A DNA stretch of 64,000 bases, taken from the IMG/VR virus record IMGVR_UViG_3300042564_004737. One strand, 5' to 3'. The notes below the pieces were generated by a model. The model made no database searches. It was not told the origin of the DNA and was given only the letters and a program-made list of their open reading frames with translations. Shown piece by piece: positions 17,152-28,841 of the stretch (the stretch's first letter is position 1; each line of letters opens with the position of its first letter). This DNA is from a virus. Its lineage: Duplodnaviria; Heunggongvirae; Uroviricota; Caudoviricetes. The position numbers and the translations under genes are program-made.

Positions 17152-17991
17152 TTAGAACGAGTGTGATACACGAACACGATATGTGTCAGTGTTGTTGGCA
17201 GCAGTTGTATTGCTGTTAACTTGTGCCACTGCCAATTGAACCGAAGTTCTCTTGCTCAATGCATACTCAGCACCAACTTCTTTGGCAGTGCCATTGCCGT
17301 CGGAATATGCAGCACCCACAGTCACAGCACCCATGGTGTAGGAAGCACCTACCACATAGGAGTCGGCAACATTGAGTTCATTGCGGCTGACACCCGCACC
17401 AACTGTGATGCCTTTTACAGTGGCTTTGGCGCTGGCACGAACACGCTCGGTAGTTTGGTTGTAGTCAACAGCACTGCTGATTGGGCCAACTGTGTAAGTT
17501 GCACCAAATGAGTTTTTGTTTGTGCCGGTGTTGTTGATGGCTCGAGTGTTGCTGACTTTGAATGCAATTCCCGACACTGTGGGTGTTGTATAGCTGACGG
17601 ATTGCACATTGGATTTGGCGCCCAATACGACTCCGTCTTGGCCCATAACTGGTGCATCGCCTAGGCCTAGACCAATGATACCATTGGCGGATTCAACTTG
17701 ACCGACCTTGACTGAACCAACACGAGTTGCAACATCAATATACAGGTCGTTGCCTTCGGTGGCAGTGCCGTTTCCACCAGGTTGAATTTCTGCATAGGCC
17801 TTGACAGTGATGCCATTGCCGATGGATTCCGTAGCAGTGAAGTTGATGTTGCTGGTGTCCATTGGGGACATGGTGGTCGATGAGTTGTCGGCCCGCTTGA
17901 TGTCGTATGCAAGTTTTCCGCCAATTTTGAACTGGGCGTGAGCTGTACCTAATGCAGCCAAAATTGCCACTGCGACTAATGCTTTTTTCAT
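17152..17991 (-). CDS. Gram-negative outer-membrane porin (Neisseria/Burkholderia-type, OmpC-like beta-barrel)
   Basis: signal peptide MKKALVAVAILAALGTAHA; Gly/Thr/Asn/Ser-rich alternating strands; C-terminal '...RVRVSHSF' terminal Phe. Confidence 0.6.
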   Translation of the reverse strand: MKKALVAVAILAALGTAHAQFKIGGKLAYDIKRADNSSTTMSPMDTSNINFTATESIGNGITVKAYAEIQPGGNGTATEGNDLYIDVATRVGSVKVGQVESANGIIGLGLGDAPVMGQDGVVLGAKSNVQSVSYTTPTVSGIAFKVSNTRAINNTGTNKNSFGATYTVGPISSAVDYNQTTERVRASAKATVKGITVGAGVSRNELNVADSYVVGASYTMGAVTVGAAYSDGNGTAKEVGAEYALSKRTSVQLAVAQVNSNTTAANNTDTYRVRVSHSF

Positions 17992-18120
17992 TGTGTATTT
18001 CCTTTGTAAGTATGAACGGGCAGAATTGCCACTCAAGTATTTATTGGTGGTCACTGCAACAACTTAGAAAACAAGCAGTTTACACTGGTTTTCTGGCTAA
18101 ATTGACCGGCAGACACCCAA

Positions 18121-18162: not shown

Positions 18163-18405
18163 TTACTTGGCAGCTGGTTTAGCTTCTTCTTTTTTAGCAG
18201 CTGGCTTGGCTTCTTCTTTCTTGGCAGCTGGTTTAGCAGCTGGCTTGGCTTCTTCTTTCTTGGCAGCTGGCGCAGCAGCAGCAGGTGCAGCCGCAGGTGC
18301 AGCAGCAGGTGTAATATTAGAAGGTGCAGCTGGTTTAGCAGCAGGAGCCTGGGCAAATGCAGTGGCAGCAGCCACGGCAGCGATAATAGCGATAAGTTGT
18401 TTCAT
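18163..18405 (-). CDS. secreted Ala/Pro/Lys-repeat protein
   Basis: signal peptide MKQLIAIIAAVAAATAFA; tandem AAKPAAKKEEAKP repeats (also visible as DNA direct repeats 18170-18260). Confidence 0.5.
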   Translation of the reverse strand: MKQLIAIIAAVAAATAFAQAPAAKPAAPSNITPAAAPAAAPAAAAPAAKKEEAKPAAKPAAKKEEAKPAAKKEEAKPAAK

Positions 18406-18494
18406 GAAATTGTCCTTTTGTTTAAAAAAATATATATATCTAACAGTACAACGGATTGTTGTACAACATTATATATGCCGCATTACAAATAAGT

Positions 18495-18530
18495 CAAAAA
18501 AATAGGACCCGAAGGTCCTATTTACTATTT
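18495..18530 (-). terminator. rho-independent terminator ending tRNA/tmRNA operon
   Basis: aggacc-uucg-ggucc followed by UUUUUUU on minus strand. Confidence 0.65.
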
Positions 18531-18865
18531 TCTGTTTCTAAGCATAGTTGCTCAAAGCAGTGTTTAGACTGCTAAGGAGTGGCGTTGTGCTGTACGAGCA
18601 GAGAACTTGACGTTCTTACCTGAAACAGTTACTTCACCTGTATTTGCGTTTGCATTTACGGTTTTTGTGTCTACGGCCGAAATACTCCGACCCTAACGGC
18701 TTCTACATTGCCGGACTGTCCATTTCTTTACTTGTGACCCAATCGATAGCCTGGTCATCCCCACCTAAATATACCTCATACACTTAGGTGGAGATGGTGG
18801 GAGTCGAACCCACGTCTTGAATCCTTTTCTGTCTACTTCATACAGTCTTAACTTTTATTTATTTT
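18500..18865 (-). ncRNA. ssrA: circularly permuted (two-piece) tmRNA, ssrA: acceptor piece ~18865-18787, processing hairpin 18763-18786, coding piece 18762-~18500
   Basis: T-arm GTGGG-TTCGACT-CCCAC + 3' acceptor CATCTCC-A-CC upstream of 5' acceptor GGGGATG (G3:U70); 5' piece GGGGATGACCAGGCTATCGATTGGG matches tmRNA 5' consensus; ORF GCAAACGCA...TTAGCAGTCTAA (…HSLAV*). Confidence 0.6.
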
Positions 18866-18870
18866 ATATT

Positions 18871-18945
18871 TGGTCTCAGTAGCAGGAATCGAACCTACGC
18901 TCCTTGGTCCCAAACCAAGAGTGATACCATTTCACCATACTGAGA
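18871..18945 (-). tRNA. tRNA-Pro(TGG)
   Basis: cloverleaf read by hand; anticodon loop TTTGGGA; CCA encoded. Confidence 0.8.
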
Positions 18946-19111
18946 ATTAACTGGGAATCATTTTTGGCAAGTAAGGCACTGCCCTGGGTCCATGCCGTTG
19001 TTGCAGTAACAAACGAGCTTCTTGTGCATCGTTGGCACCAACCCTGTCCAAGAACTCTCGACCGTTTACTCTTACTGTTGCTTCAAATAGTTTCATACAC
19101 ACCTTTAAAAT

Positions 19112-19187
19112 TGGTACATCCTCACGGTTTCGAACCGCGGACCCTCTCCTTGTAAGGGAGACGCTCTACCCCTGAGCTAAGGATGCA
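19112..19187 (-). tRNA. tRNA-Val(TAC)
   Basis: anticodon loop CTTACAA; T-loop TTCGAAA. Confidence 0.8.
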
Positions 19188-19192
19188 AAAAA

Positions 19193-19268
19193 TGGAGCGG
19201 CTAACCGGGTTCGAACCGGTGACGTCTTGCTTGGCAAGCAAGTACTCTACCAACTGAGCTACAGCCGC
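19193..19268 (-). tRNA. tRNA-Gly(GCC)
   Basis: anticodon loop TTGCCAA. Confidence 0.8.
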
Positions 19269-19278
19269 ATATGTTAAC

Positions 19279-19354
19279 TGGTACCAAGAGACGGGATCGA
19301 ACCGCCCACACACGAATTTTCAATCCGCTGCTCTACCAACTGAGCTATCTTGGT
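19279..19354 (-). tRNA. tRNA-Phe(GAA)
   Basis: anticodon loop TTGAAAA. Confidence 0.75.
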
Positions 19355-19355
19355 G

Positions 19356-19430
19356 TGGTGGAAGTAAGTAGATTCGAACTACTGACCCGCAGCGTATGAA
19401 GCTGCTGCACTACCGCTGTGCTATACTTCC
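19356..19430 (-). tRNA. tRNA-Met/Ile2(CAT) copy 1
   Basis: anticodon loop TTCATAC; perfect acceptor GGAAGTA/TACTTCC. Confidence 0.8.
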
Positions 19431-19440
19431 AGAACTGCTG

Positions 19441-19517
19441 TGGGGTATAGTATGGAATTCGAATCCATGCTGACGGAATCACAATCCGTAGTGCTGACCG
19501 CTGACACTAACTACACC
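19441..19517 (-). tRNA. tRNA-His(GTG) with G-1
   Basis: anticodon loop TTGTGAT; extra 5' G; discriminator C. Confidence 0.75.
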
Positions 19518-19641
19518 ATATAGAAACACACTACGGAGTCGAACCGCCTTGCTAGCTCCTCGCCCGAGGATGGCATTCGAGCAACCCATAACACCCGCCG
19601 CTAAACGGGCTCGTCACTCTATGCTAGTGTGTTTTTATATG
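19516..19641. repeat. palindromic element A (terminal IR CCATATAGAAACACACT / AGTGTGTTTTTATATG, ~90-nt structured core)
   Basis: inverted repeat arms 19516-19532 and 19626-19641; abuts tRNA-His 5' end. Confidence 0.6.
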
Positions 19642-19645
19642 ATCT

Positions 19646-19761
19646 GACCATATAAGAACACATTCGTTTCCTAGCTTTACGGCGGCATGCCTGCTCTTTG
19701 GGATAGCACCTGCGTCCAGTTGCTAGGTATCCACTAACCGTTGAATGTGTTCTTATATGGC
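19646..19761. repeat. palindromic element B (IR GACCATATAAGAACACATTC / GAATGTGTTCTTATATGGC)
   Basis: arms 19646-19665 and 19743-19761; nested inner IR cctagc...gctagg. Confidence 0.6.
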
Positions 19762-19867
19762 GTCGCTACCCTCTGGCGGTCAAGCCTGCTCTTGCGACTT
19801 CTTGGCGATTGCCCATCCCCTATGTGTTGTGACTAGCAACCTAGTTGGTCCGGGATCTACCAATACT

Positions 19868-19996
19868 GACCATAGTTGAATACACTCTCGGCGTAAAGGG
19901 CTTTTTCATCGTGCTAGTTAAGCTACTTCGTTGCGTCCGCCCTGCTAACCAAGCAGACTGTCGGGTCAACCAATGATGAATGTATTCAACTATGGC
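19868..19996. repeat. palindromic element C (IR GACCATAGTTGAATACAC / GAATGTATTCAACTATGGC)
   Basis: arms 19868-19886 and 19978-19996. Confidence 0.55.
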
Positions 19997-20044
19997 AACT
20001 TCTAATTCAAGCAAGGGCGTGTGACCATTGAACTCAAATAGTTT

Positions 20045-20149
20045 TACCATATAGAAACACACTATTGTTTTACAATAAACTACGCTCCTGAGTTTCTGCT
20101 CAGGACCCCATAGGTCTGCCTATGTTTTCTAATGTGTTTTTATATGGTA
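20045..20149. repeat. palindromic element D (IR TACCATATAGAAACACACT / AATGTGTTTTTATATGGTA)
   Basis: arms 20045-20063 and 20131-20149; right arm overlaps 3' CCA of tRNA-Lys. Confidence 0.6.
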
Positions 20150-20220
20150 GGACCACCCGGACTCGAACCGGGAATTGGCAGATTAAAAGTCTGCTGTGAT
20201 AACCATTTCACTATGATCCC
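20145..20220 (-). tRNA. tRNA-Lys(TTT)
   Basis: anticodon loop CTTTTAA. Confidence 0.75.
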
Positions 20221-20365
20221 ATACTCAGTCGTGAATTGTCTTTCGAGTGCCAATCCAGACCGACATGGGATCTGGGTTGACACTACATTTTAGCTGTTCG
20301 CTTCATATAGTCTTTCGTTTAAGTTTTGATTATACAACAATTGCAGAATGTTGTCAACTGTTTTT

Positions 20366-20442
20366 GGTGCGTCCTGAGAGACTCGAACTCCCGGCCCCCG
20401 GCTTCGTAAACCAGTGCTCTGATCCAGCTGAGCTAAAGACGC
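20366..20442 (-). tRNA. tRNA-Arg(ACG)
   Basis: anticodon loop TTACGAA; T-arm GGGAG-TTCGAGT-CTCTC. Confidence 0.7.
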
Positions 20443-20450
20443 ATTGAGTA

Positions 20451-20520
20451 GCCCCGGAGGAAGGAATCGAACCTTCATTGGTTGTATACGGACCTGTGTT
20501 ACCATTACACTACAACCGGG
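20451..20520 (-). tRNA. tRNA-like gene, anticodon unresolved
   Basis: good T-arm GAAGG-TTCGATT-CCTTC and 5-bp acceptor, but anticodon arm could not be folded canonically. Confidence 0.3.
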
Positions 20521-20529
20521 ATAAAAAGA

Positions 20530-20604
20530 TGGTGCCCCACGACAGAATCGAACTGCCATCACAGGATTACAAAACCAGTGTACTGCCATTGTACTAGTAG
20601 GGCT
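20530..20604 (-). tRNA. tRNA-Thr(TGT) (tentative)
   Basis: anticodon loop TTTGTAA with two mismatches in anticodon stem; acceptor GCCCTAC/GTGGGGC. Confidence 0.5.
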
Positions 20605-20610
20605 AAAAAT

Positions 20611-20686
20611 TGGCTCCTCAGGTACGGATCGAACGTACGACATCTTCATTAACAGTGAAGCGCAACTACCGCTGTGCTACTGAGGA
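20611..20686 (-). tRNA. tRNA-Asn(GTT)
   Basis: anticodon loop CTGTTAA; perfect acceptor TCCTCAG/CTGAGGA. Confidence 0.8.
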
Positions 20687-20695
20687 ATAAACCAT

Positions 20696-20787
20696 TGGTG
20701 GAGAATAAGAGATTCGAACTCTTGGAGCCAATTACTTGACCCGACAGGTTAGCAACCTGCTGCCTTCGACCACTCGGCCAACTCTCC
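20696..20787 (-). tRNA. tRNA-Ser(GCT), class II
   Basis: 92 nt, long variable arm; anticodon loop TTGCTAA. Confidence 0.75.
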
Positions 20788-20834
20788 GTTATCTCTATTA
20801 TATAGCAGTTGACCAACAGTGTCAACATATATTT

Positions 20835-20910
20835 GGTGCCGCCACGTGAACTCGAATCACGGACCTTTCGCTTATCAAGCGAATGCTCTAACCAACTGAG
20901 CTATGGAGGC
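20835..20910 (-). tRNA. tRNA-Ile(GAT)
   Basis: anticodon loop TTGATAA. Confidence 0.75.
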
Positions 20911-20917
20911 ATTATTT

Positions 20918-20991
20918 TGGCAGAGGGTACTGGGATCGAACCAGTGATGACAGAGTCAAAGTCTGTAGTGTTGCCGCTACACTAACCCCCA
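20918..20991 (-). tRNA. tRNA-Gln(TTG)
   Basis: anticodon loop CTTTGAC; 1-72 mismatch. Confidence 0.65.
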
Positions 20992-20998
20992 ATAAATT

Positions 20999-21074
20999 TG
21001 GTGGAGGATATCAGGATCGAACTGATTACCTACTGCTTGCAAAGCAGCCGCTCTCCCAAATGAGCTAATCCCCC
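20999..21074 (-). tRNA. tRNA-Ala(TGC)
   Basis: anticodon loop TTTGCAA; G3:U70 in acceptor GGGGGAT/ATCCTCC. Confidence 0.75.
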
Positions 21075-21080
21075 GTTTTT

Positions 21081-21157
21081 TGGCCGGCCCTGAGAGATTC
21101 AAACTCCCAACTTCCAGTTTCGAAGACTGGCACTCTATTCGATTGAGTTAAGGACCG
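21081..21157 (-). tRNA. tRNA-Arg(TCG)
   Basis: anticodon loop CTTCGAA. Confidence 0.75.
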
Positions 21158-21162
21158 ATGTT

Positions 21163-21238
21163 TGGCGTACCGCCAGGGATTCGAACCCCGAACCGCTGGT
21201 TTTGGAGACCAGAACTCTGCCAGTTGAGCTAGCGATAC
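21163..21238 (-). tRNA. tRNA-Trp(CCA)
   Basis: anticodon loop CTCCAAA. Confidence 0.8.
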
Positions 21239-21280
21239 ATTTTAAAAATTCAATACAAATTGCCAATAAGTACTGGTGAC

Positions 21281-21970
21281 ATGAAAAACTTTTTCTTACA
21301 CCAACTTGTTCATCAAAGACACCCGGAATATCAACCATTGACTTCAGTGTTGCCGATATGCAATGTCAAAAACTCAATGGCAAAAAGTCTAAAGGCACTG
21401 TCAAAAATTACATACAACAATGATGATGCCTTCCAGGCGTTTTCGGTCAACAGTAAATATTTTGAACTGATGGCCGAAAATCCAAAAACATTCAATGTAG
21501 ACAACATACCACCGGAGACACTGAGACAATGGGTGTACGATTCCGAGTTTGACGAATTACTAACAAAAAATTCTCACATGGAAGTAAAATTACAAGACCC
21601 AATTCTAAAATTTGTTGTCTCTGAATTTTTGAATGCCATTGGGCTAGATCCGGCTCACCTGGCCGTCAGTCGAGCAAAATTAAACATACAAAAACCTGGT
21701 CAAATATTTCCTTTGCATCTGGACCGAGTTCGGCACAATGACTATCATGCTGACGAAAAACAACTTGTGTCGGATCCATCACATGATAGATTTCTAATTT
21801 TTTTAGAAGATCAGCAACCGGGACAAATGTTTCAATTTGACATGTGTAACATAACATGGTCAGCCGGAGACGTGTTCACTTGGAATGCCCGAGACACCAT
21901 GCATGCATCAGCAAATACAGGATATTGGACCAGAAGACTTCTGTTGATTGATGTGGGCAAAAAGACCTGA
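21281..21970 (+). CDS. hypothetical protein (only sizeable plus-strand gene inside the tRNA region)
   Basis: ORF 21260..21970; probable start MKNFFLHQL at 21281. Confidence 0.45.
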   Translation: MKNFFLHQLVHQRHPEYQPLTSVLPICNVKNSMAKSLKALSKITYNNDDAFQAFSVNSKYFELMAENPKTFNVDNIPPETLRQWVYDSEFDELLTKNSHMEVKLQDPILKFVVSEFLNAIGLDPAHLAVSRAKLNIQKPGQIFPLHLDRVRHNDYHADEKQLVSDPSHDRFLIFLEDQQPGQMFQFDMCNITWSAGDVFTWNARDTMHASANTGYWTRRLLLIDVGKKT

Positions 21971-21999
21971 TCTGATTGCCCGTATTTTCTAACACACTG

Positions 22000-22090
22000 T
22001 TGCCAATGTGTGTATTAAAGCACACTCACCCGAATGGACCTTGTCACCTCCGCCTGCTGTCGGAAGTGTGCTTTAATACGCTGTGATTTT
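22000..22090. repeat. palindromic element E (IR TGTGTATTAAAGCACACT / AGTGTGCTTTAATACG)
   Basis: arms 22008-22025 and 22065-22080. Confidence 0.5.
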
Positions 22091-22184
22091 TCGCTCCACA
22101 AAAGGAGTTTCATCCCACAGGCCGCCCGTTTACAACTTGTTTTAAGTGCGTTGTCAGGACCTCGTTTCCTGGGCATTGCTGCTC

Positions 22185-22355
22185 TTATTCACACTTTGCG
22201 ATCTGCGACGGCCCTTGGGCAGTCTCTCGCTGTTTTGCTGCTCGGTGATGCTGTGCGGCACGTTCGACCTTTTTACGGATCAATTGCTTGAACTGTTCTT
22301 TAGTCAGTGTATGCGTTGCCGTCCACTCTGCTTGCTTAATCTTTTTATCTGTCAT
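22185..22355 (-). CDS. small basic Lys/Arg-rich protein (56 aa)
   Basis: MTDKKIKQAEWTATHTLTKEQFKQLIRKKVERAAQHHRAAKQRETAQGPSQIAKCE; AAGGAA RBS; not in track (<60 aa). Confidence 0.4.
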   Translation of the reverse strand: MTDKKIKQAEWTATHTLTKEQFKQLIRKKVERAAQHHRAAKQRETAQGPSQIAKCE

Positions 22356-22367
22356 TGTTCCTTGCTA

Positions 22368-22412
22368 AAATAAAAAAACCCTGGGTTTTTAATCCAGGGT
22401 CCTTGAAGTTTG
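22368..22412 (-). terminator. rho-independent terminator with conserved 5' flank CAAACTTCAAGGACCCTGG
   Basis: on minus strand ccctgg-auuaaaaa-cccagg then UUUUUUUAUUUU; same module at 29418-29460. Confidence 0.6.
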
Positions 22413-22611
22413 TCGGTTACTGCTGTTATGCGCAACTGCTTTCTTCTCGGACCCTGTGATTCGCTGTAATATTCTTGACACGGCCAAAACCGCGTGACCA
22501 CGGCTGAGCCTGGGTCGTTACGCGATGCATGGGGCTAAAAATATTAGTGTTCATCATAAATCCTATTGTATGTTATTTATCATTCTGTGTCAACCACCGA
22601 TGATTTGTTAT

Positions 22612-22687
22612 TGGTAGCGGGACTTGGATTTGAACCAAGGATTGCGAAGGCTTATGAGACCCTGCCGGTGACCGGACCCTTCCCGCG
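22612..22687 (-). tRNA. tRNA-Met(CAT) copy 2 (C1:U72 mismatch, possibly initiator-like)
   Basis: 76 nt; anticodon loop CTCATAA; T-arm CTTGG-TTCAAAT-CCAAG; CCA encoded. Confidence 0.65.
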
Positions 22688-22699
22688 GTAGTTTATTTA

Positions 22700-22763
22700 T
22701 CTATTCTGAAACACACTATCTGCGGCATTGCAGCCCGCATCAGCTTAATGTGTTTTAGAATAG
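22700..22763. repeat. palindromic element F (IR TCTATTCTGAAACACACT / TAATGTGTTTTAGAATAG)
   Basis: immediately 5' of tRNA-Met copy 2. Confidence 0.55.
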
Positions 22764-23100
22764 TGGAGCACTGAGAATACATGCTTACCCAACAACACCT
22801 CGGACATTATTACGATCCTTGCGAGACCGCTTTCTTCCGACTTCCACCAAGACCCTTGCAGGTTTCCTGGTCTGTTGCCAGCATCGCCGTTTTTAAAGAC
22901 AGGCAGTAGTCTTGTCGCCATATGCTATTCTACGCTTTCTATCCCGTTGACCTTTAGAGCCATTCACTGTCGCTAAACAGTTACGAAACTTCCTGCATAA
23001 ACAGATTTCACCTTGCGAGTTACGTCTGACTTGATTCTCTTGCGAGCCAAGTATTAGATGCTTTTCACATACGACCGAGTCAGTCTTTGCTTTTTAATAG

Positions 23101-23176
23101 TTAGATGGATTTGAACCGTCTGCCTACTCCTTAACAGGGAGTTGCTCTACCAATTGAGCTATAACGAACCTACTGC
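23101..23176 (-). pseudogene. tRNA-Asn(GTT)-like element with defective acceptor stem
   Basis: perfect anticodon arm ACTCC-CTGTTAA-GGAGT and D-arm, T-loop TTCAAAT, but only 5/7 acceptor pairs and C-A mismatch in T stem. Confidence 0.3.
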
Positions 23177-23714
23177 GATGTGCTGACTCAGTTGCTGCAT
23201 AAAGTTTTGCTCTACACAATACAACACACCACGTTCCTTTTGTCTTGCGAACTACTCAGACGTCTTTTGCGATCTGTGTTGACCCCGCCTTTCGACAGCC
23301 TCCACTGACCACTCAAACTGCATACAAGCCCTTGGGTGCAACCCCTCGGACCGATACACTACCCTTTCTCATGCCAATTAACTGGACTGGTTTTGTTGTG
23401 AAGTCAGCACCACCTGTTACTTTCCATCTGCTCCGGTTACCCTTGCGGGCCGGTAAGCCGACGTTCTTTCCACAACATCCAGCGTCATTGTTACCTCCAC
23501 CGGTCTTATCAGTGAAGGGACTCTCGCGAGTCTGAGCAGGCTTGTCTAAACGAACCGTTGCTGGCGGAGTTATGTAGGCATACCTCCTTTGGCTGTGTCA
23601 CCACAGTTATTCTTCACTAGACAGCAAGCTGCCTAGTAGGACATTAAACTGCCCCGGAATCTTATTGTAACATCAACTGTTGAACTTGTCAACACCTAAT
23701 TTTACCAAACTTTA

Positions 23715-23818
23715 TATTGTTGAACACACCACTGAAATTGAGTATGAAGGAATCGAACCTTCTTTCACGCCCCACGTACTCGATGCCCGTTTCAGTCAGG
23801 CTAATGTGCTCAACAATA
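23715..23818. repeat. palindromic element G (IR TATTGTTGAACACACC / AATGTGCTCAACAATA) enclosing a tRNA 3'-half-like T-arm
   Basis: inner GAAGG-TTCGATT-CCTTC T-arm without matching 5' half. Confidence 0.45.
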
Positions 23819-23903
23819 TCAAGTAAGTATCTATTGTATGACAAACATCTTTGCTTGTCAAATTGTTTTGGATAAACTGATAAAAAGTTTATCCAACACG
23901 ATC

Positions 23904-23993
23904 TGGTACCAGCGGAGAGAATCGAACTCTCTCAAAGCCGCTAATCTGGCGGAAAGGGCATATAAGACCCCTCGGACTCCAAGTCTCGCTGGC
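23904..23993 (-). tRNA. class-II-length tRNA-like gene (90 nt), anticodon loop CTTATAT (TAT?) uncertain
   Basis: acceptor GCCAGCG/CGCTGGT + A + CCA, T-arm GAGAG-TTCGATT-CTCTC, long variable hairpin; 3-bp D stem; anticodon stem has G:U pairs. Confidence 0.35.
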
Positions 23994-24369
23994 ATATTGA
24001 ATTTGTTAGAGTAGCAGCACCACGTTATTGCTGCCATTCACCCGAATTAACAAGCTCGAGCGGGAGTCGGTAAGTTACTTGGGATACCGGTCCAGTTGAT
24101 ACGCCGTCATGTATGCCGATCCCACTCAAGCGATCAGCCGGGCATCGAACCCGCAACCTTCTACTGTTTTGGTCCTTCGAAGAAACCTAGACAGCGTGAC
24201 TTTCTCTTGCTAACACTCTAACAAAACTTGGCGCCCCTAACAGGAATTAAACCTGTCTACGTTCAGCTTCAAATCTGACTCGCAACACAGTCCAGGGCAT
24301 AACTTGGCGCAGAACATTTCTGTTTTTATCCGTGTCCAGGAATATTACTCCAGACAAAAACTGCAAATT

Positions 24370-24461
24370 TGGGGCATCATGTGGGATTCGAACCCACGCA
24401 AGAAAACCTTGATGATCATTCAAGGTTGAGGCAAACCGCACCCCGTTACATCCTATGACAC
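24370..24461 (-). tRNA. class-II-length tRNA-like gene (92 nt), anticodon unresolved
   Basis: acceptor GTGTCAT/ATGATGC + C + CCA, T-arm GTGGG-TTCGAAT-CCCAC; internal hairpin CCTTGA-ATGATCA-TCAAGG. Confidence 0.3.
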
Positions 24462-24706
24462 CATAAACTAATTAAGAGCTTGTAGACCAAACTACAATTT
24501 ACCGGTTTCTAGACGAACTCTTAAACTTGGTGGTTAGTGCTGTTGCGACACAGCGACATCCCTTGAGCGAGAGCGTAGGAACTTAATCTACGGGTAAACA
24601 CCTCTTGGGTCGAACAGTCAGGACAATTACTTTTGTAAGGCGTACTAAGCAGCGCCTGTTCAGAGCGCTCCCTTTGGGTTACTTTCATTTCCAACTAACC
24701 AAAACT

Positions 24707-24783
24707 TGGTAGGCCCTCTGTGAGTCGAACACAGCACCAACAGATTATGAGTCTGCTGCTCTAACCAACATGAGCTAAGGGCC
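24707..24783 (-). tRNA. tRNA-Met(CAT) copy 3
   Basis: anticodon loop CTCATAA; T-loop TTCGACT. Confidence 0.75.
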
Positions 24784-24791
24784 TGTTAACT

Positions 24792-24866
24792 TGGCGATGC
24801 GTGGGAGAGTCGAACTCCCGTCTCTGGATAGACAATCCAGGATAATGACCGTTATATGAACGCACC
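24792..24866 (-). tRNA. tRNA-Asp(GTC)
   Basis: anticodon arm CTGGA-TTGTCTA-TCCAG. Confidence 0.8.
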
Positions 24867-25100
24867 TAAATTTGTGAAAATGTTATGAGGACTCTTACCC
24901 CACCGTTGTTTGTATAGGCTGCGCGACCCATACGTCCCGGACACATTTTCTGACCCGGCGGTGTTTACTTTGTGGCTCTTGCTTTCCACTTGATTTCGTT
25001 TCCCGGTCGGAACTTCACCGACAATATACTGCAAGCATCTATGCAGCCTTGTTAATTCATCGCCCACAGGATTTGCATTAGGGCTCTGACGAGAAATATT

Positions 25101-25187
25101 TGGTGGATGAGGTTGGACTTGAACCAACAATGCCATTACGACGGAAGATTTACAGTCTCCTGGGGTTACCAATTTTCCTACACATCC
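25101..25187 (-). tRNA. tRNA-Tyr(GTA), class II
   Basis: 87 nt; anticodon loop CTGTAAA; long variable arm. Confidence 0.7.
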
Positions 25188-25194
25188 AAAAACA

Positions 25195-25269
25195 TGGTAG
25201 AGCATAGCGGAGTCGAACCGCTCTTAGTGGACTGAAAACCCACTGTCCTAACCGATAGACGAATGCTCC
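25195..25269 (-). tRNA. tRNA-Glu(TTC)
   Basis: anticodon loop TTTTCAG. Confidence 0.75.
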
Positions 25270-25274
25270 AAATT

Positions 25275-25409
25275 TATTATATTGAAACGCACTCGGCTCC
25301 CCTTACAACCTTGTTCCTGTCAATTCAGGATGAACCTGGCTCAAGTCCAGCGGCTCCCCTTGGTTGTTTGTATCTGTCAATTCAGATTGAAAATGTGTTT
25401 CAATATAAT
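25275..25409. repeat. palindromic element H (IR TATTATATTGAAACGCACT / AATGTGTTTCAATATAAT) with internal ~45-nt direct repeat
   Basis: internal repeats cggctcccctt...tgtcaattcag x2. Confidence 0.55.
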
Positions 25410-25483
25410 TTCTTGCCGTAGCAAGAAAAAATATTAGTAAATTTTTAAAGAATTCTCTTCAGCTACTCGATCGTTTGCTGCTG

Positions 25484-25502
25484 TTATGTGTGTATTATAG
25501 CA
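25484..25502 (-). promoter_or_regulatory. extended -10 promoter (TGCTATAATACACACATAA) with conserved upstream box CTACTCGATCGTTTG
   Basis: same 45-bp promoter region as 29287-29321; drives tRNA block. Confidence 0.55.
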
Positions 25503-25530
25503 CTGATGCGATTTTGTGTCTACCAGCGCC

Positions 25531-25564
25531 ATAAAAAAACCCGCCTAGTTAGCGGGTCTTTGTG
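25531..25564 (-). terminator. rho-independent terminator
   Basis: acccgc-uaacuag-gcgggu then UUUUUUUU on minus strand. Confidence 0.6.
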
Positions 25565-25674
25565 AATGTAGTACTTTTGTTAACTACAATGGCAAAGACC
25601 CCTGGGACAATCACGCTCATAGGCTATCTCATAGATGGCCGGCGTGTTGTTAGCAGTGAATGTGATTTGCGTAA

Positions 25675-25695
25675 TCATAGTGTATTATATATGCC
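25675..25695 (-). promoter_or_regulatory. promoter motif variant (ATATATAATACACTATGA)
   Basis: gtgtattatatatg core. Confidence 0.4.
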
Positions 25696-25710
25696 TTTTG
25701 TTTAAAAGTC

Positions 25711-25743
25711 AAGAAAAAAGGCTATCAAAGTAGCCTTTTTAAC
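25711..25743. terminator. bidirectional terminator (aggctatcaaagtagcct)
   Basis: same hairpin as 17106-17133. Confidence 0.6.
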
Positions 25744-25745
25744 AT

Positions 25746-25833
25746 TGGCGGAAGTGGTAGGATTCGAACCCACGATACCTTGCGATATGACTGATTAGTA
25801 ATCAGCTGCCTTAGGCCACTCAGCCACACTTCC
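25746..25833 (-). tRNA. class II tRNA, Ser-type body, apparent anticodon ACT (unusual)
   Basis: 88 nt; perfect acceptor GGAAGTG/CACTTCC; anticodon arm GCTGA-TTACTAA-TCAGT; D-arm like tRNA-Ser(TGA) at 29145. Confidence 0.5.
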
Positions 25834-26333
25834 TAAACTCGTTCATTGACTCGAACACGATGTCGTGCAGTGGCCAATCCTTTGAAGCGATCCGCAGCAT
25901 AACTGGCAGCAAACGCTTCGGGTTTGACCAATGGTGTTATGTTGCAGGTTCCTTTTATATAGCCAATGGCCTGTGCAATCACACAGCTGGATCCGTGGCG
26001 TTCGTCTGGATTGATGTCCAAGTGTACTTCCACTTCTCGGCCGTTCAGCACTTCGCCCAGCCGATGATACATGTCAGAAACTTTGTACACTTCGTTCATC
26101 AGTCGCATGCTGGGCCGTGCAGTTTTTTGATCATAGTCACGCTCGCGGCACACTTCGCCAAATATCTTGCATCCGCTGTTGCCGTTGATATGCACCACAA
26201 TGGCCAGTGTGTAATCGGCCCACCATTCGTTGTTGATTCGGATTCGTTCGCTGTCGCAACCCAAATAGATGCGAGTCATTGGGCCTTGTGCTTCTATGAA
26301 TTGTTTTACTTTTACAAGATTAATGGTTTGCAT
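25833..26333 (-). CDS. hypothetical protein
   Basis: 166-aa ORF directly abutting tRNA. Confidence 0.45.
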   Translation of the reverse strand: MQTINLVKVKQFIEAQGPMTRIYLGCDSERIRINNEWWADYTLAIVVHINGNSGCKIFGEVCRERDYDQKTARPSMRLMNEVYKVSDMYHRLGEVLNGREVEVHLDINPDERHGSSCVIAQAIGYIKGTCNITPLVKPEAFAASYAADRFKGLATARHRVRVNERV

Positions 26334-26361
26334 AATTTTCTCAAATCGATCAACATAAAAA

Positions 26362-26435
26362 CTGGAGCGGGATGGGGGAATCGAACCCCCGACTTTAGAT
26401 TGGAAATCTAAGGTAATACCATTTTACGAATCCCG
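26362..26435 (-). tRNA. tRNA-Gly(TCC)
   Basis: anticodon loop TTTCCAA; T-arm GGGGG-TTCGATT-CCCCC. Confidence 0.8.
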
Positions 26436-26557
26436 CAATAGTGTACCGATGCTTATACAAGCAGGAGCATTGCTCGGTACCACACAAAGGCAGGATTTAA
26501 AAAGAGCCTGCACTCTGACTACTCTATTTACTCTTTAAAATTCAACTGTGAATTAAC

Positions 26558-26635
26558 TGGAGTAGCGGGTGAGATTCGAACTCACGGTTTTAGGGATTTG
26601 CAATCCCTTGCATTGGGCCTCTCTGCCACCGCTAC
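26558..26635 (-). tRNA. tRNA-Cys(GCA)
   Basis: anticodon arm AGGGA-TTGCAAA-TCCCT; perfect acceptor. Confidence 0.8.
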
Positions 26636-26650
26636 TTTAAAATTCCAGGC

Positions 26651-27253
26651 CTACATTGTAGGACCATTGCCGTTACGAAAACCCACTGACCCACCTTCTG
26701 CTTCGATGCGTTTGATCACATCTTCAAACAGTATCGGTGCAAAGTCAGTCTGTTCCACGCATACACAATGATAGCGTGGATCAATCTCGTCGCTGTACAA
26801 GATTTCACCAGTTCTAGCATCAACTCCACGGGCTTTGCGTACACGATTTGCGTGAGTATGTCCGTGTATGTTGACGCCAAAACGCCCCAAGCTGTCACTG
26901 TGTACAGGAATGTGGCTAAGGATCATGCCGTTCATCACATGGTACGCCCGTAATTCACGAAAGTATTCACGATACTCTTCATCACGGAAGATATCATGGT
27001 TGCCACGGATTAACACCTTGTCGCCGTTCAATCTGGCCAGAGTCTTTAATGCTTTGCGGTTTATAACCACATCACCCAAGTGATATACCTTGTCCGTGGG
27101 TTTAACTCGTTTGTTCCAGGCCGTGACCATGGCTTCGTCCATTTCCTCAGCACTATCCCACGGGCGTAATTTGGTGACACCATCGTTGCGGGTAAAGCGG
27201 CATACACCCATGTGTCCAAAGTGCGTGTCGCTGACTAAAAATACACTAGGCAT
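26651..27253 (-). CDS. calcineurin-like metallophosphoesterase
   Basis: 'VSDTHFGH', 'GDVV', 'GNHD' motifs; promoter motif 27279-27293. Confidence 0.75.
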   Translation of the reverse strand: MPSVFLVSDTHFGHMGVCRFTRNDGVTKLRPWDSAEEMDEAMVTAWNKRVKPTDKVYHLGDVVINRKALKTLARLNGDKVLIRGNHDIFRDEEYREYFRELRAYHVMNGMILSHIPVHSDSLGRFGVNIHGHTHANRVRKARGVDARTGEILYSDEIDPRYHCVCVEQTDFAPILFEDVIKRIEAEGGSVGFRNGNGPTM

Positions 27254-27359
27254 CTTGCCCTCCTTTTCTTGCGTTGTAACCTATATTATAGCAGATTGTG
27301 GCTTTGCAGTCAATCAAACGGCTGTTGTAATTATATCGTACTATAGTTAAATATAGTAA

Positions 27360-27554
27360 ATGAAATATTCTTTGTTGTTTGTGTTGTTGGCAGGCTCTAC
27401 AGCATTAAATGCTGTGGCACCACCAACGGAAAAATTAGACAAGAATGAACAATGGGTGTGTACACTGTGGAGTTGGTCGGGCCAAGCTCCCAATAGAGAA
27501 GTTTGGTGTCGACGCTGGGAAAAGCAATTTAAACCTTATATTCTACGATCATGA
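27360..27554 (+). CDS. small secreted protein
   Basis: signal peptide MKYSLLFVLLAGSTALNA; plus strand. Confidence 0.4.
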   Translation: MKYSLLFVLLAGSTALNAVAPPTEKLDKNEQWVCTLWSWSGQAPNREVWCRRWEKQFKPYILRS

Positions 27555-28036
27555 TTGACCCTGTGACAATTGGCCTGGCATTCACTGCGGCACAGCAAGC
27601 AATTGGCGGCATTAAAAAAGCCATTGCCATGGGCAAAGACATCAACAGCTTATACGGACAGTTTAGTTCATTTTTTCAAAATTGCGACAAAGTTTATGTG
27701 GCCAATGTCAAGCTGATGAATTCTACTTCTTTGCTGAGCAATGGAGAAATTGCTTCAAGATCTTTGCAAACTGCCATGCACAGCAAAGCACTGCGGGACG
27801 CTGAAAAAGAACTTAAAGAAATGCTGATCTGGTCCGGCAACAAAGATGTCTGGGATCAAATGCAGTCCGAGCGAGTGCGTATGTACAAAGAACGAGCAGA
27901 AGTTGAAAGAAAAATGGCAGCAGCCAATCGCAAAGCACAAGAAGACATATTACAAACATTTCTTGTGTTTTCTTGTTTTGTGGCCATTGCAATTCCGGCA
28001 TTTTTTCTCAGCCTGGTAATGCTATCCAGAGCCTAA
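27551..28036 (+). CDS. coiled-coil protein with C-terminal transmembrane anchor
   Basis: 161 aa; C-terminal hydrophobic FLVFSCFVAIAIPAFFLSLVML; plus strand. Confidence 0.4.
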   Translation: MIDPVTIGLAFTAAQQAIGGIKKAIAMGKDINSLYGQFSSFFQNCDKVYVANVKLMNSTSLLSNGEIASRSLQTAMHSKALRDAEKELKEMLIWSGNKDVWDQMQSERVRMYKERAEVERKMAAANRKAQEDILQTFLVFSCFVAIAIPAFFLSLVMLSRA

Positions 28037-28043
28037 CCCAGTA

Positions 28044-28517: not shown

Positions 28518-28540
28518 AGTGTGATTGCTTTTATATACTT

Positions 28541-28617
28541 GGTGCCCTAGGAGAGACTCGAACTCTCAGCTTACGGCTTCTAAGACCGCTGTGTCTACCA
28601 ATTTCACCACCAGGGCA
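28541..28617 (-). tRNA. tRNA-Leu(TAG)
   Basis: anticodon loop CTTAGAA; D-arm shared with Leu(TAA); only 77 nt (short variable arm). Confidence 0.6.
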
Positions 28618-28624
28618 TATATCT

Positions 28625-28798
28625 TTACTTGCTATCTGTGCCACGATCCTTGCTGCTTTTGACAACAACACCGCTGCATAGCTGTGCATCAACCATCATG
28701 CGCTTGAACGCATTGCGTATGGTTTGATCTTTGAATGGCAGCAAGGTCATCAATGTTTTGTTGCGCTTGCTGAACTTAAAAGTTTTTGTTGGGGTCAT
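28625..28798 (-). CDS. small basic protein (57 aa)
   Basis: MTPTKTFKFSKRNK...; track ORF N-terminus overlaps tRNA so trimmed. Confidence 0.35.
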   Translation of the reverse strand: MTPTKTFKFSKRNKTLMTLLPFKDQTIRNAFKRMMVDAQLCSGVVVKSSKDRGTDSK

Positions 28799-28841
28799 GA
28801 TTGCTTTCTTTAATTTAACTTGATTAACTGACTTATTTAAA

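What the first reader, a model, noticed from the sequence alone, without database searches (positions are those of the whole stretch)
19516..25409. Family of at least eight palindromic elements with terminal inverted repeats (...GAAACACACT / AGTGTGTTTC...) scattered through the tRNA array
Elements A-D form a tandem run between tRNA-His and tRNA-Lys (19516-20149), each 90-130 nt and bounded by 16-20-bp inverted repeats of one consensus (CCATATAGAAACACACT...AATGTGTTTTTATATGG). Related copies lie at 22000-22090, 22700-22763 (just 5' of tRNA-Met), 23715-23818 and 25275-25409; the last contains an internal 45-nt direct repeat. Several arms overlap tRNA ends (CCA of tRNA-Lys, 5' end of tRNA-His). 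The cores are ORF-free and some carry tRNA-like T-arms without a 5' half. They could be processing/landing sites, small stable RNAs as in the T4 tRNA region, MITE-like selfish elements, or remnants of split tRNAs.
Basis: seen in the sequence. Interest (0 to 1): 0.6.

Follow-up and report, generated by a model that had tools for sequence, protein, structure and literature searches.

The report
Swappable hairpin RNA cassettes among phage tRNAs
Between the tRNA genes of this ~340-kb uncultured phage sit nine long-stemmed hairpin modules. The same 17-base-pair stem recurs in at least 120 other viral contigs around more than 150 unrelated inner sequences that are exchanged like cassettes, which points to an undescribed class of phage small RNAs that ride on tRNA transcription and processing.

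Summary
The eight elements are the only inverted repeats of their quality in the 64-kb window (dinucleotide shuffles give 0-2), and all lie on the tRNA-coding (minus) strand. Their arms share 5'-CCAUAUAAAAACACAUU...AGUGUGUUUCUAUAUGG-3' and co-vary between copies.

They belong to a large family: at least 120 IMG/VR loci, no cultured phage and no Rfam family. In that family:
- The 5' arm starts with the CCA end of the upstream tRNA in 102 of 136 cases.
- The 3' arm often ends at position +1 of the next tRNA.
- Arm identity is about 96% where the neighbouring tRNA-Lys genes are 72% identical.
- The interiors ("cargo") fall into about 158 unrelated families.

Identical cargos sit next to different tRNAs. 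Identical flanks hold different cargos, or no hairpin at all. A close relative (L087) differs from the window exactly between the two arms of element D.

Best reading: these are exchangeable small-RNA cassettes clamped by a terminal helix, co-transcribed with tRNAs and released by tRNA-end processing. Cargo function and any stem-binding factor are unknown. They are not classical MITEs, split tRNAs, Y RNAs or ribozymes.

The parts
20045..20149 (-). Element D: canonical stem (UACCAUAUAAAAACACAUUA / UAGUGUGUUUCUAUAUGGUA) whose first bases are the ACCA end of tRNA-Lys. The cargo has three small hairpins.
   Evidence: I5; -41.3 kcal/mol, z -7.7. Cargo homologues were retrieved without using the arms; they have canonical arms and covariation in hairpin 2. 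Cargo is replaced between identical arms in L087.
19867..19998 (-). Element C: stem diverged by compensatory changes (GCCAUAGUUGAAUACAUUC / GAGUGUAUUCAACUAUGGU). Cargo is about 90 nt.
   Evidence: I9; z -4.5.
19647..19761 (-). Element B: perfect 18-19 bp stem (GCCAUAUAAGAACACAUUC / GAAUGUGUUCUUAUAUGGU).
   Evidence: I4, 100% complementary; z -5.6.
19515..19643 (-). Element A: canonical stem. The cargo ends in a T-arm-like hairpin, and the 3' arm abuts position 1 of tRNA-His.
   Evidence: I14; z -4.0.
22010..22081 (-). Element E: 15-17 bp stem (GUAUUAAAGCACACU / AGUGUGCUUUAAUAC). It lies downstream of a 56-aa ORF, not next to a tRNA. The cargo is shared with L053, L060, L076, L087 and L120.
   Evidence: I21; z -4.4; cluster 5.
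22701..22763 (-). Element F: canonical upper stem, short cargo. It lies 5 nt downstream of GOLLD RNA and 14 nt upstream of an uncalled tRNA(CAU)-like.
   Evidence: (z -3.3). The same GOLLD-then-hairpin order occurs in L066.
23709..23824 (-). Element G: 20-23 bp stem with a diverged lower half. It starts at the predicted start site of the promoter at 23861-23833. The cargo has a T-arm-like hairpin. The same cargo has canonical arms in L020 (between tRNA-Lys and tRNA-His) and in L066 (inside a permuted tmRNA).
   Evidence: I8; z -5.2; cluster 8.
25276..25409 (-). Element H: 16-19 bp stem. The cargo holds two 41-nt direct repeats. It ends 6 nt before tRNA-Glu. The cargo is shared with L028.
   Evidence: I25; z -5.0.
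24002..24225 (-). Ninth stalked element: unrelated 18-bp stem (UUUGUUAGAGUGUUAGCA / UGCUGCUACUCUAACAAA) around a cargo of about 190 nt that holds a T-arm-like hairpin.
   Evidence: I23; z -2.8.
20145..20220 (-). tRNA-Lys(UUU), whose 3' CCA is the base of D's stem.
19441..19516 (-). tRNA-His(GUG), starting directly after A's 3' arm.
20329..20357 (-). Consensus sigma-70-type promoter (12 of 12) upstream of the unit tRNA-Lys, D, C, B, A, tRNA-His. No terminator-like site on this strand lies between them.
23833..23861 (-). Sigma-70-type promoter (11 of 12) whose predicted start site coincides with the first base of G.

Best explanation
The elements are small-RNA cassettes embedded in the phage's tRNA operons. 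Each is transcribed on the tRNA strand from host-type promoters as part of a polycistronic precursor. Its two ends pair into a 15-20 bp, AU-rich terminal helix (the stalk). In the typical case the stalk starts with the CCA of the upstream tRNA and ends at the base before position +1 of the next tRNA.

The module therefore fills the whole inter-tRNA spacer. The enzymes that mature tRNA ends would release it: RNase P on its 3' side, and 3'-end trimming or an endonucleolytic cut, possibly RNase III in the stalk, on its 5' side. The product would be a stem-clamped RNA of 60-130 nt. These release steps are inferred.

The interior (cargo) is the variable, orientation-dependent payload. The stalk isolates it from neighbouring tRNAs and protects its ends. 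One stalk sequence, CCAUAUAAAAACACAUU/AGUGUGUUUCUAUAUGG with a fixed A.C mismatch and a U.G wobble, is shared by hundreds of cassettes. It also acts as the junction at which cargos are exchanged between slots and between phages.

Shown: hairpin anatomy, covariation, strand, tRNA-end junctions, family size, cassette exchange and presence/absence of the hairpin at a given tRNA pair.

Inferred: transcription, the nucleases involved, stability of the released RNA, and whether the conserved stalk is read by a specific protein. Cargo function is unknown.
For: 1. Hairpin reality and covariation:
- for the window.
- for D's homologues.
- for a sister cargo family, where a 23-bp stalk of unrelated sequence is kept in 26 members, with 20 of the 33 predicted pairs (nearly all of them in the stalk) showing compensatory double changes.

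2. RNA sense:
- The orientation defined by the arm asymmetry agrees with the nearest tRNA strand 143 to 9.
- Cargo matches between elements are 192 in the same orientation and 0 inverted.
- Outside the two fixed positions, arm variation is mostly G.U on the sense strand: about 50 G.U against 12 A.C, and 80 against 48 in the noisier set.

3. tRNA-end junctions:
- In 102 of 136 elements the CCA of the arm is the CCA of the tRNA.
- In 46 the next tRNA starts at the last one or two G of the 3' arm.
- In L066 and L296 the hairpin is the intervening segment of a permuted tmRNA, between ACCA and the 5' GGG.

4. Expression context: 11-12 of 12 sigma-70 promoters lie on this strand. One drives tRNA-Lys, D, C, B, A, tRNA-His, and one starts at G.

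5. Cargo under selection: families recur across phages at 85-100% identity while the adjacent tRNA-Lys genes are 62-66% identical. Covariation is seen in D's hairpin 2.

6. Cassette behaviour:
- Window and L087 are identical through tRNA-Lys and the 5' arm, unrelated in cargo, and identical again in the 3' arm.
- 9 pairs of loci have both flanks >=93% identical but unrelated cargo. 109 pairs have >=90% identical cargo in unrelated flanks.
- Three tRNA pairs exist both empty and occupied; Lys->His holds three different cargos.

7. Conservation of the stalk: 96% against 72% for tRNA-Lys and 48% (random level) for cargo. D homologues retrieved by cargo alone still carry canonical arms.
Against: - There are no expression data. 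Transcription and processing are inferred from promoters, strand and junctions only.
- Cargo alone is only weakly more structured than shuffles: mean z -0.59, antisense -0.36.
- Each strand of the canonical stem has one wobble and one mismatch, so thermodynamics does not pick the strand.
- Empty sites show the hairpin is dispensable for tRNA maturation. This leaves the benefit to the phage undefined.
- The near-invariance of 17 bp is not explained by a purely structural role, since other stalks are free in sequence. It could equally reflect a DNA-level recognition site.
- No candidate stem-binding protein or RNase III was found in the 64-kb window.
- The arm-conservation figure is inflated because most loci were retrieved by an exact arm pattern.
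Confidence: 0.6

Rival explanations
1. The elements are DNA-level mobile or site-specific recombination elements. The conserved, imperfect inverted arms would be the recognition site of an unidentified recombinase, transposase or endonuclease. Possible models are folded single-strand recognition as for integron attC sites, or TA-targeting insertion as for Correia-type MITEs. RNA folding would be secondary. This can coexist with an RNA function of the cargo.
For: - Arms are 96% conserved where the flanking tRNA-Lys genes are 72% identical and cargo is at random level.
- Gain, loss and replacement are precise at the arm boundaries.
- The same cargo appears at 96-100% identity next to different tRNAs.
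- The arm asymmetry has a fixed polarity, as attC sites have.
- Empty sites are short AU-rich spacers containing TA, and the arms begin and end with TATA.
Against: - Empty and occupied sites do not differ by a simple insertion with a target duplication: CCA GTTTATG G against CCA TATAAAAAC...CTATATG G.
- No integrase, transposase or homing-endonuclease domain was found in the window or among the ORFs that recur near the elements.
- Arms change by compensatory pairs, which independent binding of a protein to each arm would not require.
- Stalks of entirely different sequence hold the same architecture.
- Cargo is never inverted.
- No GTTRRRY/RYYYAAC core is present in the arms (read directly from the sequence).
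Confidence: 0.2
2. The elements are purely structural spacers. The stalk would be a processing or insulating helix, for example an RNase III site like the stalks flanking rRNAs, that helps separate neighbouring tRNAs. The interior would be filler without function.
For: - The stalk spans exactly from CCA to tRNA +1.
- Stems are 15-26 bp, AU-rich and double-stranded.
- Some elements are almost only stem, for example L009 with a 9-nt loop and L012 and L016 with loops of only 3-4 nt.
- Cargo-only folding is weak on average.
Against: - The same tRNA pairs work with 4-7 nt spacers.
- 1172 of 2080 adjacent tRNA pairs have spacers <=20 nt, and only 77 carry a canonical hairpin.
- Cargo families are conserved across phages more strongly than the adjacent tRNAs, with compensatory changes.
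- Cargo orientation is always kept.
- Elements E and G are not flanked by tRNAs, yet keep the stem.
Confidence: 0.12
3. The elements are degenerate tRNAs, split-tRNA halves or tRNA-like RNAs of the Y RNA (YrlA) type, with an extended acceptor-like stem.
For: - A, G and the ninth element contain T-arm-like hairpins.
- In some relatives the T-arm directly precedes the 3' arm, as in a tRNA.
- Y RNAs also have a long terminal stem and occur in phages (PMC4201824).
Against: - Only 15 of 144 elements have a T-arm-like hairpin, against 7 in the antisense control.
- Median cargo length is 52 nt, too short for a tRNA.
- There is no Rfam tRNA or YrlA hit on any element at E<=1.
- The Ro-binding motif GNCGAAN0-1G (PMC4201824) is absent from the arms.
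- No TROVE/Ro gene was seen in the window.
Confidence: 0.03

Closest known systems
Phage T4 small stable RNAs (species 1 = rnaC, species 2 = rnaD) in the T4 tRNA cluster
   Same: They are non-tRNA RNAs encoded inside a phage tRNA cluster, directly next to tRNAs on the same strand. rnaC has a T-arm-like hairpin, as do A and G. Function is unknown in both cases.
   Different: T4 rnaC and rnaD have no 15-20 bp terminal helix and no shared stem sequence. There are only two of them. There is no evidence of cassette exchange.
Processing stalks of bacterial rRNA operons (RNase III substrates); own knowledge
   Same: Sequences flanking a functional RNA pair into a long helix that delimits it within a polycistronic precursor that also carries tRNAs. 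Stalk length here is 15-26 bp.
   Different: Cleavage by RNase III is untested here. One stalk sequence is conserved across hundreds of different cargos. The canonical stem is only 17 bp and carries an A.C mismatch.
Theta (minimal HDV-like) ribozymes next to phage tRNAs (PMC10879173)
   Same: They are structured elements associated with phage tRNA genes, with a proposed role in tRNA 3'-trailer processing.
   Different: Only 4.5% of theta-associated tRNAs encode CCA, against 97% here. The elements here have no conserved unpaired core, no HDV-like fold and no Rfam ribozyme hit.
Bacterial and phage Y RNAs (YrlA) (PMC4201824)
   Same: A long stem is formed by the 5' and 3' ends around a variable or tRNA-like module. 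They are found in phages and can be cut by RNase P.
   Different: The Ro-binding motif is absent, there is no Rfam YrlA match, no Ro gene was seen, and most cargos are not tRNA-like.
Correia / ERIC-type MITEs; own knowledge
   Same: They have terminal inverted repeats beginning with TATA, fold into hairpins when co-transcribed, and vary in presence or absence between genomes.
   Different: MITE copies share their interior, whereas here there are 158 unrelated interiors. No target-site duplication was seen. The arms co-vary. Orientation is strictly that of transcription.
Integron attC sites and gene cassettes; own knowledge
   Same: They are imperfect inverted repeats with a variable centre of 30-140 nt and fixed polarity, and they mediate exchange of unrelated payloads at conserved junctions.
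   Different: Here the payload lies inside the hairpin, not between hairpins. There are no R/L core boxes and no integrase. The payload is a non-coding RNA.
Intervening segment of permuted (two-piece) tmRNA genes (Rfam RF04321)
   Same: In L066 and L296 the canonical hairpin is that segment. It joins the ACCA end of the acceptor piece to the 5' end of the coding piece and must be excised.
   Different: The consensus tmRNA segment is a short AU-rich loop. The window's own tmRNA (18473-18878) has such a short loop and no hairpin.

Membership tests
MITE (miniature inverted-repeat transposable element) | Copies within and between genomes share the internal sequence as well as the terminal repeats. 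| tested here: not met
   227 elements fall into 158 interior clusters. Interior identity among tRNA-Lys-linked copies is 48%, equal to shuffled sequence.
MITE (miniature inverted-repeat transposable element) | A target-site duplication flanks the element, and empty sites differ by a simple insertion. | tested here: not met
   Three tRNA pairs with empty and occupied states: the whole 4-7 nt spacer is replaced and there is no direct repeat. The sample is small.
MITE (miniature inverted-repeat transposable element) | Presence or absence of the element varies independently of the flanks. | tested here: met
Integron attC / cassette | Conserved R''/R' core sites (RYYYAAC / GTTRRRY) and an associated tyrosine integrase. 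| tested here: not met
   The arms contain no such core (read from the sequence). No integrase domain was found in the window ORFs scanned. The rest of the ~340-kb genome was not seen.
Y RNA / YrlA | Ro-binding motif GNCGAAN0-1G in the stem, and a match to the Rfam YrlA model. | tested here: not met
   The motif is taken from PMC4201824 and is absent from the arms. No YrlA hit falls on any element at E<=1.
tRNA / pseudo-tRNA / split tRNA | A cloverleaf, or at least a T-arm with acceptor-like pairing, in most members. | tested here: not met
   No ARAGORN or Rfam tRNA call falls inside any element. T-arm-like hairpins occur in 15 of 144, against 7 in the antisense control.
Self-cleaving ribozyme 3' of tRNA (theta / HDV-like) | A conserved catalytic core and nested pseudoknot fold, with a match to ribozyme models. 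| tested here: not met
   Conservation is confined to a continuous helix and the interior is not conserved. There are no Rfam ribozyme hits.
Intrinsic terminator | A GC-rich short hairpin followed by a U tract. | tested here: not met
   Arms have 23% GC, loops are 29-199 nt, and there is no U tract in the 3' flank consensus. No minus-strand terminator call is made from the long arms of any element; one call (25428-25409) only touches the first base of H.
RNase III processing stalk | Double-stranded helix of about two turns formed by the flanks of the released RNA. | tested here: met
   Helices are 15-20 bp in the window and 20-26 bp in sister cargo family X.
RNase III processing stalk | Staggered cleavage of both strands by RNase III in vivo or in vitro. 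| not testable with these tools
   Needs end-mapping or an enzyme assay.
Small stable RNA of a phage tRNA cluster (T4 rnaC/rnaD type) | A non-tRNA gene inside a tRNA cluster, on the same strand and contiguous with tRNAs. | tested here: met
Small stable RNA of a phage tRNA cluster (T4 rnaC/rnaD type) | Accumulates as a discrete stable RNA after processing by tRNA-maturing enzymes. | not testable with these tools
   No transcript data are available.

The most novel reading that the evidence does not exclude
This is a dedicated cassette system for non-coding RNAs. The conserved 17-bp stem, with its fixed A.C mismatch and U.G wobble, would be read by a specific phage or host factor. That factor would be either a recombinase acting on the folded arms, or an RNA-binding or processing protein that loads the cassettes. 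This would let jumbo phages shuffle a library of more than 150 small structured RNAs, for example decoys or inhibitors of host defence or tRNA-targeting nucleases, into tRNA operons where tRNA-processing enzymes release them. It would be an integron-like principle applied to RNA genes.
Probability: 0.25. Interest if true: 0.9.

Novelty: new variant of a known kind. Interest (0 to 1): 0.72.

Why it matters
Phage tRNA arrays are usually read as codon-usage or anti-defence tRNA supplies, and the DNA between the tRNAs is ignored. In one large group of uncultured jumbo phages these spacers hold a diverse and actively exchanged repertoire of small RNAs, all presented on one conserved double-stranded stem.

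If the RNAs are functional, this is a new and large reservoir of phage non-coding RNAs, with a built-in expression and release mechanism through tRNA processing. That is the same trick engineers use in tRNA-guide-RNA arrays.

If the stem is a recognition site, there is an unknown protein partner to find.

The extreme conservation of the stem against a diverged background, and the clean cassette replacements, make both questions directly testable.

Tried and rejected
- Rfam 15 at E<=1 on the tRNA region, and at E<=0.01 on four related loci: no family covers any element. The hits were only tRNAs, tmRNA and GOLLD.
- BLAST of the region and of a synthetic arm pair against 50,697 cultured-phage records: only a tRNA hit and chance hits.
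- Arm pattern against 185,579 prokaryotic genomes: hits were essentially single chance matches. Of the 80 loci listed, 2 had an inverted pair, both on short MAG contigs (L122, L162). So this is not a host sequence.
- Y RNA: rejected on the motif and the model.
- T4 rnaC and rnaD folded for comparison: no terminal stalk.
- The DUF458 RNase H-like gene as the partner of the hairpins: it recurs near them (31 loci). But it also sits in the tRNA array of Stenotrophomonas phage DLP6, which has no such hairpins, so it is linked to tRNA arrays and not to the hairpins.
- The only plus-strand ORF inside the array (21260-21970), tested as a possible endonuclease or transposase: an ORFan with 7 homologues and no domain.
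- Pfam scans of 50 window ORFs and PHROG scans of 10 (partly the same ORFs) for RNase III, Ro, RNA ligase, integrase or transposase: none found.
- Strand choice from thermodynamics: each strand has one wobble and one mismatch in the canonical stem, so this is uninformative.
- A wobble-tolerant stem scan had too high a background to find further members.
- Literature searches with five sets of terms found no description of this architecture. A catalogue of 10,006 candidate viral RNAs (PMC10690425) may contain some cargos anonymously.

Full report
CONTEXT. The window carries 30 tRNA genes and a permuted tmRNA, all on the minus strand between 18473 and 29234. It also carries a GOLLD RNA at 22768-23232. 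The protein content is that of a jumbo phage. The family-B DNA polymerase is 49% identical to that of Sinorhizobium phage Phosso and 42-46% identical to those of Atu_ph07, CBB and PBECO4. An ORF of the array is found, 100% identical, on a 339,811-bp metagenomic contig, GCA_043534535.1. The tRNA region is studded with near-consensus sigma-70-type promoters on the minus strand.

Inverted-repeat searches recover all eight elements. A strict scan of the whole window looked for >=14 Watson-Crick pairs, <=1 mismatch and a loop of 25-150 nt. It returns these eight and nothing else, while six dinucleotide shuffles give 2,1,0,0,0,0. Folded as minus-strand RNA, each forms a 15-20 bp terminal helix around a 38-102 nt interior, with z-scores from -3.3 to -7.7. 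In RNA sense the arms read 5'-(C)CAUAUAAAAACACAUU...AGUGUGUUUCUAUAUG(G)-3'. The upper part (RYACAYU/ARUGURY) is common to all eight, and the lower part differs in C, E, F, G and H through paired changes. Aligned in register, 94.7% of cells pair and 11 of 19 pairs have changes on both sides. No shuffle out of 500 reaches this, and sliding the partner by 1-3 columns drops pairing to 29-53%. There are two additions. A ninth stalked element with an unrelated 18-bp stem lies at 24002-24225. F lies between the 3' end of GOLLD and an uncalled tRNA(CAU)-like.

A LARGE FAMILY, SPECIFIC TO UNCULTURED PHAGES. 86 of the hits were exact inverted pairs, mostly 66-112 nt apart. The same pattern in 185,579 prokaryotic genomes gave essentially single chance hits. 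Of the 80 loci listed, two had an inverted pair, both on short MAG contigs. No cultured phage carries the pair, and no Rfam family covers it. The loci are dense tRNA arrays, with 1846 tRNAs in 1.1 Mb.

ANATOMY ACROSS THE FAMILY.
- The canonical stem is asymmetric. Position 8 is A.C in 99 of 144 elements, and position 16 is U.G in 103 of 144.
- The orientation defined by this asymmetry agrees with the strand of the nearest tRNA 143 to 9.
- In 102 of 136 elements that have an upstream tRNA, the first three bases of the arm are that tRNA's CCA (Lys 53, Gln 19, Glu 11).
- In 46 elements the next tRNA starts at the last one or two G of the 3' arm, so its position -1 is a U paired with A76 of the upstream tRNA.
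- 97% of the tRNAs in these arrays encode CCA.
- Arms have 23% GC and interiors 48%. Interior length is 29-199 nt, median 52.
- In L066 and L296 the hairpin is the intervening segment of a permuted tmRNA, joining ACCA to the 5' GGG.

So the element occupies exactly the stretch that tRNA-end maturation removes.

THE HELIX IS SELECTED AS A STRUCTURE, ON THE SENSE STRAND.
- Of 545 inter-tRNA spacers of 30-260 nt in these loci, 73 fold with a terminal helix of >=12 bp starting at CCA.
- 46 of these are canonical. 27 have stems of quite different sequence, 14-24 bp long.
- One such cargo family (X) was retrieved by a cargo motif. It has 26 members with a 23-bp stalk whose sequence is free, while the core is nearly invariant. 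20 of the 33 predicted pairs show compensatory double changes, nearly all of them in the stalk.
- Among canonical arms, variation outside the two fixed positions is mainly G.U in the sense orientation: about 50 against 12 A.C, and 80 against 48 in a noisier set.
- Cargo matches between elements are 192 in the same orientation and none inverted.

THE INTERIOR IS A PAYLOAD, NOT A tRNA REMNANT.
- 227 elements fall into 158 interior clusters.
- Only 15 of 144 have a T-arm-like hairpin, against 7 in the antisense control.
- Cargo families recur across phages. D's cargo was retrieved without reference to the arms. It has about ten homologues with three hairpins, covariation in the second hairpin, and canonical arms in nearly all of them.
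- On average, cargo alone is only weakly more stable than shuffled sequence (mean z -0.59). Structure is therefore shown for some families, not for all.

CASSETTE BEHAVIOUR.
- Among 50 distinct tRNA-Lys-linked elements, the tRNA-Lys genes are 72% identical on average, the arms 96% and the cargos 48%, which equals shuffled sequence. The arm figure is biased upward by the way the loci were retrieved, but the cargo-based retrieval of D homologues gives the same picture.
- The same cargo is found next to different tRNAs: 100% identical after tRNA-Thr and tRNA-Tyr; 100% after tRNA-Glu and tRNA-Lys; 100% after tRNA-Lys genes that are 62-64% identical.
- The same slot holds different cargos. There are 12 cargo clusters between Lys and Met. 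The tmRNA slot holds G-like cargo in L066 and D-like cargo in L296.
- Over all pairs of 233 elements, 9 pairs have both flanks >=93% identical with unrelated cargo. 112 pairs keep one flank only. 109 pairs share >=90% identical cargo in unrelated flanks.
- The clearest case involves the window itself. L087 is identical to the window through the leader, tRNA-Lys and D's 5' arm, unrelated across the cargo, identical again across the 3' arm, and then diverges.
- Finally, three tRNA pairs occur both with and without a hairpin, with nearly or fully identical tRNA ends. Lys->His reads CCA-GTTTATG-G in L026, against a hairpin with three different cargos in L077, L113 and L117. Gln->Arg reads CCA-ATAA-C in L060, against a hairpin in L051. 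Leu->Val reads CCA-TAGTTTA-G in L017, against a hairpin in L078.
- In each case the whole spacer is replaced and there is no target-site duplication.

WHAT IT MOST LIKELY IS. These are exchangeable small-RNA cassettes clamped by a terminal helix. They are transcribed with the tRNAs. A 12-of-12 promoter at 20357-20329 precedes tRNA-Lys, D, C, B, A, tRNA-His without an intervening terminator, and G starts at the predicted start site of the promoter at 23861-23833. They would be released by tRNA-end processing: RNase P on the 3' side, and 3' trimming or a cut in the stalk on the 5' side. These processing steps follow from established knowledge of tRNA maturation and of RNase III action on helices of about two turns. 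They are inferred, not shown. The stalk is required structurally, as the covariation shows, even where no tRNA flanks it (E, G). The empty sites show it is not required for the tRNAs. The benefit must therefore lie in the cargo or in the stalk itself.

THE CONSERVED STEM. The near-invariance of one stalk sequence, against free-sequence stalks in the same arrays, is not explained by structure. Two explanations fit: a sequence-specific reader (protein), or concerted evolution through the recombination that swaps cargos. I cannot separate these. No candidate protein was found in the window. The DUF458 RNase H-like and phosphoesterase genes that recur near the hairpins are linked to tRNA arrays in general. 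DUF458 also sits in the array of phage DLP6, which has no such hairpins.

COMPARISON WITH KNOWN THINGS.
- The closest functional analogue is the pair of small stable RNAs of the T4 tRNA cluster, which lack the stalk and the shared stem.
- The geometry resembles rRNA processing stalks.
- The evolutionary behaviour resembles cassettes (integron attC) or MITEs, but the defining features of both were tested and not met (see the membership table).
- Theta ribozymes also sit next to phage tRNAs. They belong to CCA-less tRNAs and have a catalytic fold.
- Y RNAs are excluded by motif and model.
- I found no description of this architecture in the searchable literature.

VERDICT. The feature is real, highly non-random and widespread. 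It is best filed as a new variant of small RNAs embedded in phage tRNA clusters, with two unexpected properties: a conserved double-stranded stem, and cassette-like exchange of cargos. Function is unknown.

Noticed in passing
window 22768-23232 (-), probably extending to about 23680: GOLLD RNA (Rfam RF02032, 197 bits, E 8e-55) with tRNA-Asn (23095-23169) embedded in it. A sigma-70-type promoter lies at 23692-23664 upstream, and hairpin F lies 5 nt downstream. The same GOLLD-then-hairpin order occurs in L066 (2633-3098, then 3103-3190).
   Followed up: partly
window 18473-18878 (-); L066 812-1112; L296 1944-2072: A phage-encoded permuted (two-piece) tmRNA. In two related phages its intervening segment is a canonical hairpin cassette, with G-like cargo in L066 and D-like cargo in L296. 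In the window it is a short loop.
   Followed up: partly
window 24002-24225 (-): A ninth stalked RNA with an unrelated 18-bp stem around a strongly structured interior of about 190 nt with a T-arm-like hairpin (z -2.8). Further T-arm-bearing, unannotated stretches lie at about 24240-24440.
   Followed up: partly
window 20452-20519 (-) and 22611-22690 (-): Two tRNA-like genes missed by ARAGORN. The first scores 32 bits with the Rfam tRNA model. The second has an acceptor stem, a T-arm and a CUCAUAA loop (CAU anticodon) but an aberrant D-arm.
   Followed up: partly
window 25833-26333 (-), 26651-27253 (-), 28044-28517 (-): Three genes are embedded in the tRNA array: a DUF458 RNase H-like protein, a calcineurin-like phosphoesterase and an AAA_33 / polynucleotide-kinase-like protein. 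The first two recur in about 30 related loci at 63-75% identity. DUF458 also sits in the tRNA arrays of cultured phages such as Stenotrophomonas phage DLP6. Together they look like a tRNA repair or processing module.
   Followed up: partly
L028, L032, L062, L075, L243-L294 (related phages; not in the window): Cargo family X has a conserved core (GUAAGC...GYGUUAUGUAAC...AAUAAAC.GUAA...GUAAAGC..GUUGAG...AUAGUGCA) of roughly 85-100 nt inside a 20-26 bp fully co-varying stalk, often between tRNAs. It has no Rfam match and is a candidate new RNA family.
   Followed up: partly
window 18400-29600 (-): Eleven sigma-70-type promoters match 11-12 of 12 consensus positions within the tRNA region. This implies many short, strongly expressed transcription units read by the host polymerase.
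   Followed up: no
window 25746-25833 (-) and 23904-23993 (-): Two unusual tRNA calls: tRNA-Ser with anticodon ACU, and a 90-nt tRNA-Ile(UAU) with the anticodon at position 30.
   Followed up: no
window 46069-46836, 41912-42463, 37884-38759, 29637-30659: GTP cyclohydrolase I, a 6-pyruvoyl-tetrahydropterin synthase (QueD-like) and two radical-SAM proteins. This looks like a 7-deazaguanine (preQ0/queuosine-type) pathway, for DNA or tRNA modification.
   Followed up: no
window 14473-15798 (-), 17152-18054 (-), 18167-18368: Host-like genes lie just upstream of the array: a TctA transporter subunit and a Gram-negative porin. There is also an ORF region made of 12/15/27-nt Ala/Pro-rich repeats.
   Followed up: no
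window 21260-21970 (+): The only plus-strand ORF inside the minus-strand array. It has 236 aa (229 aa from the downstream start used by its database homologues), no Pfam or PHROG hit, and 7 homologues in 5.8 billion proteins. Its function is unknown.
   Followed up: yes
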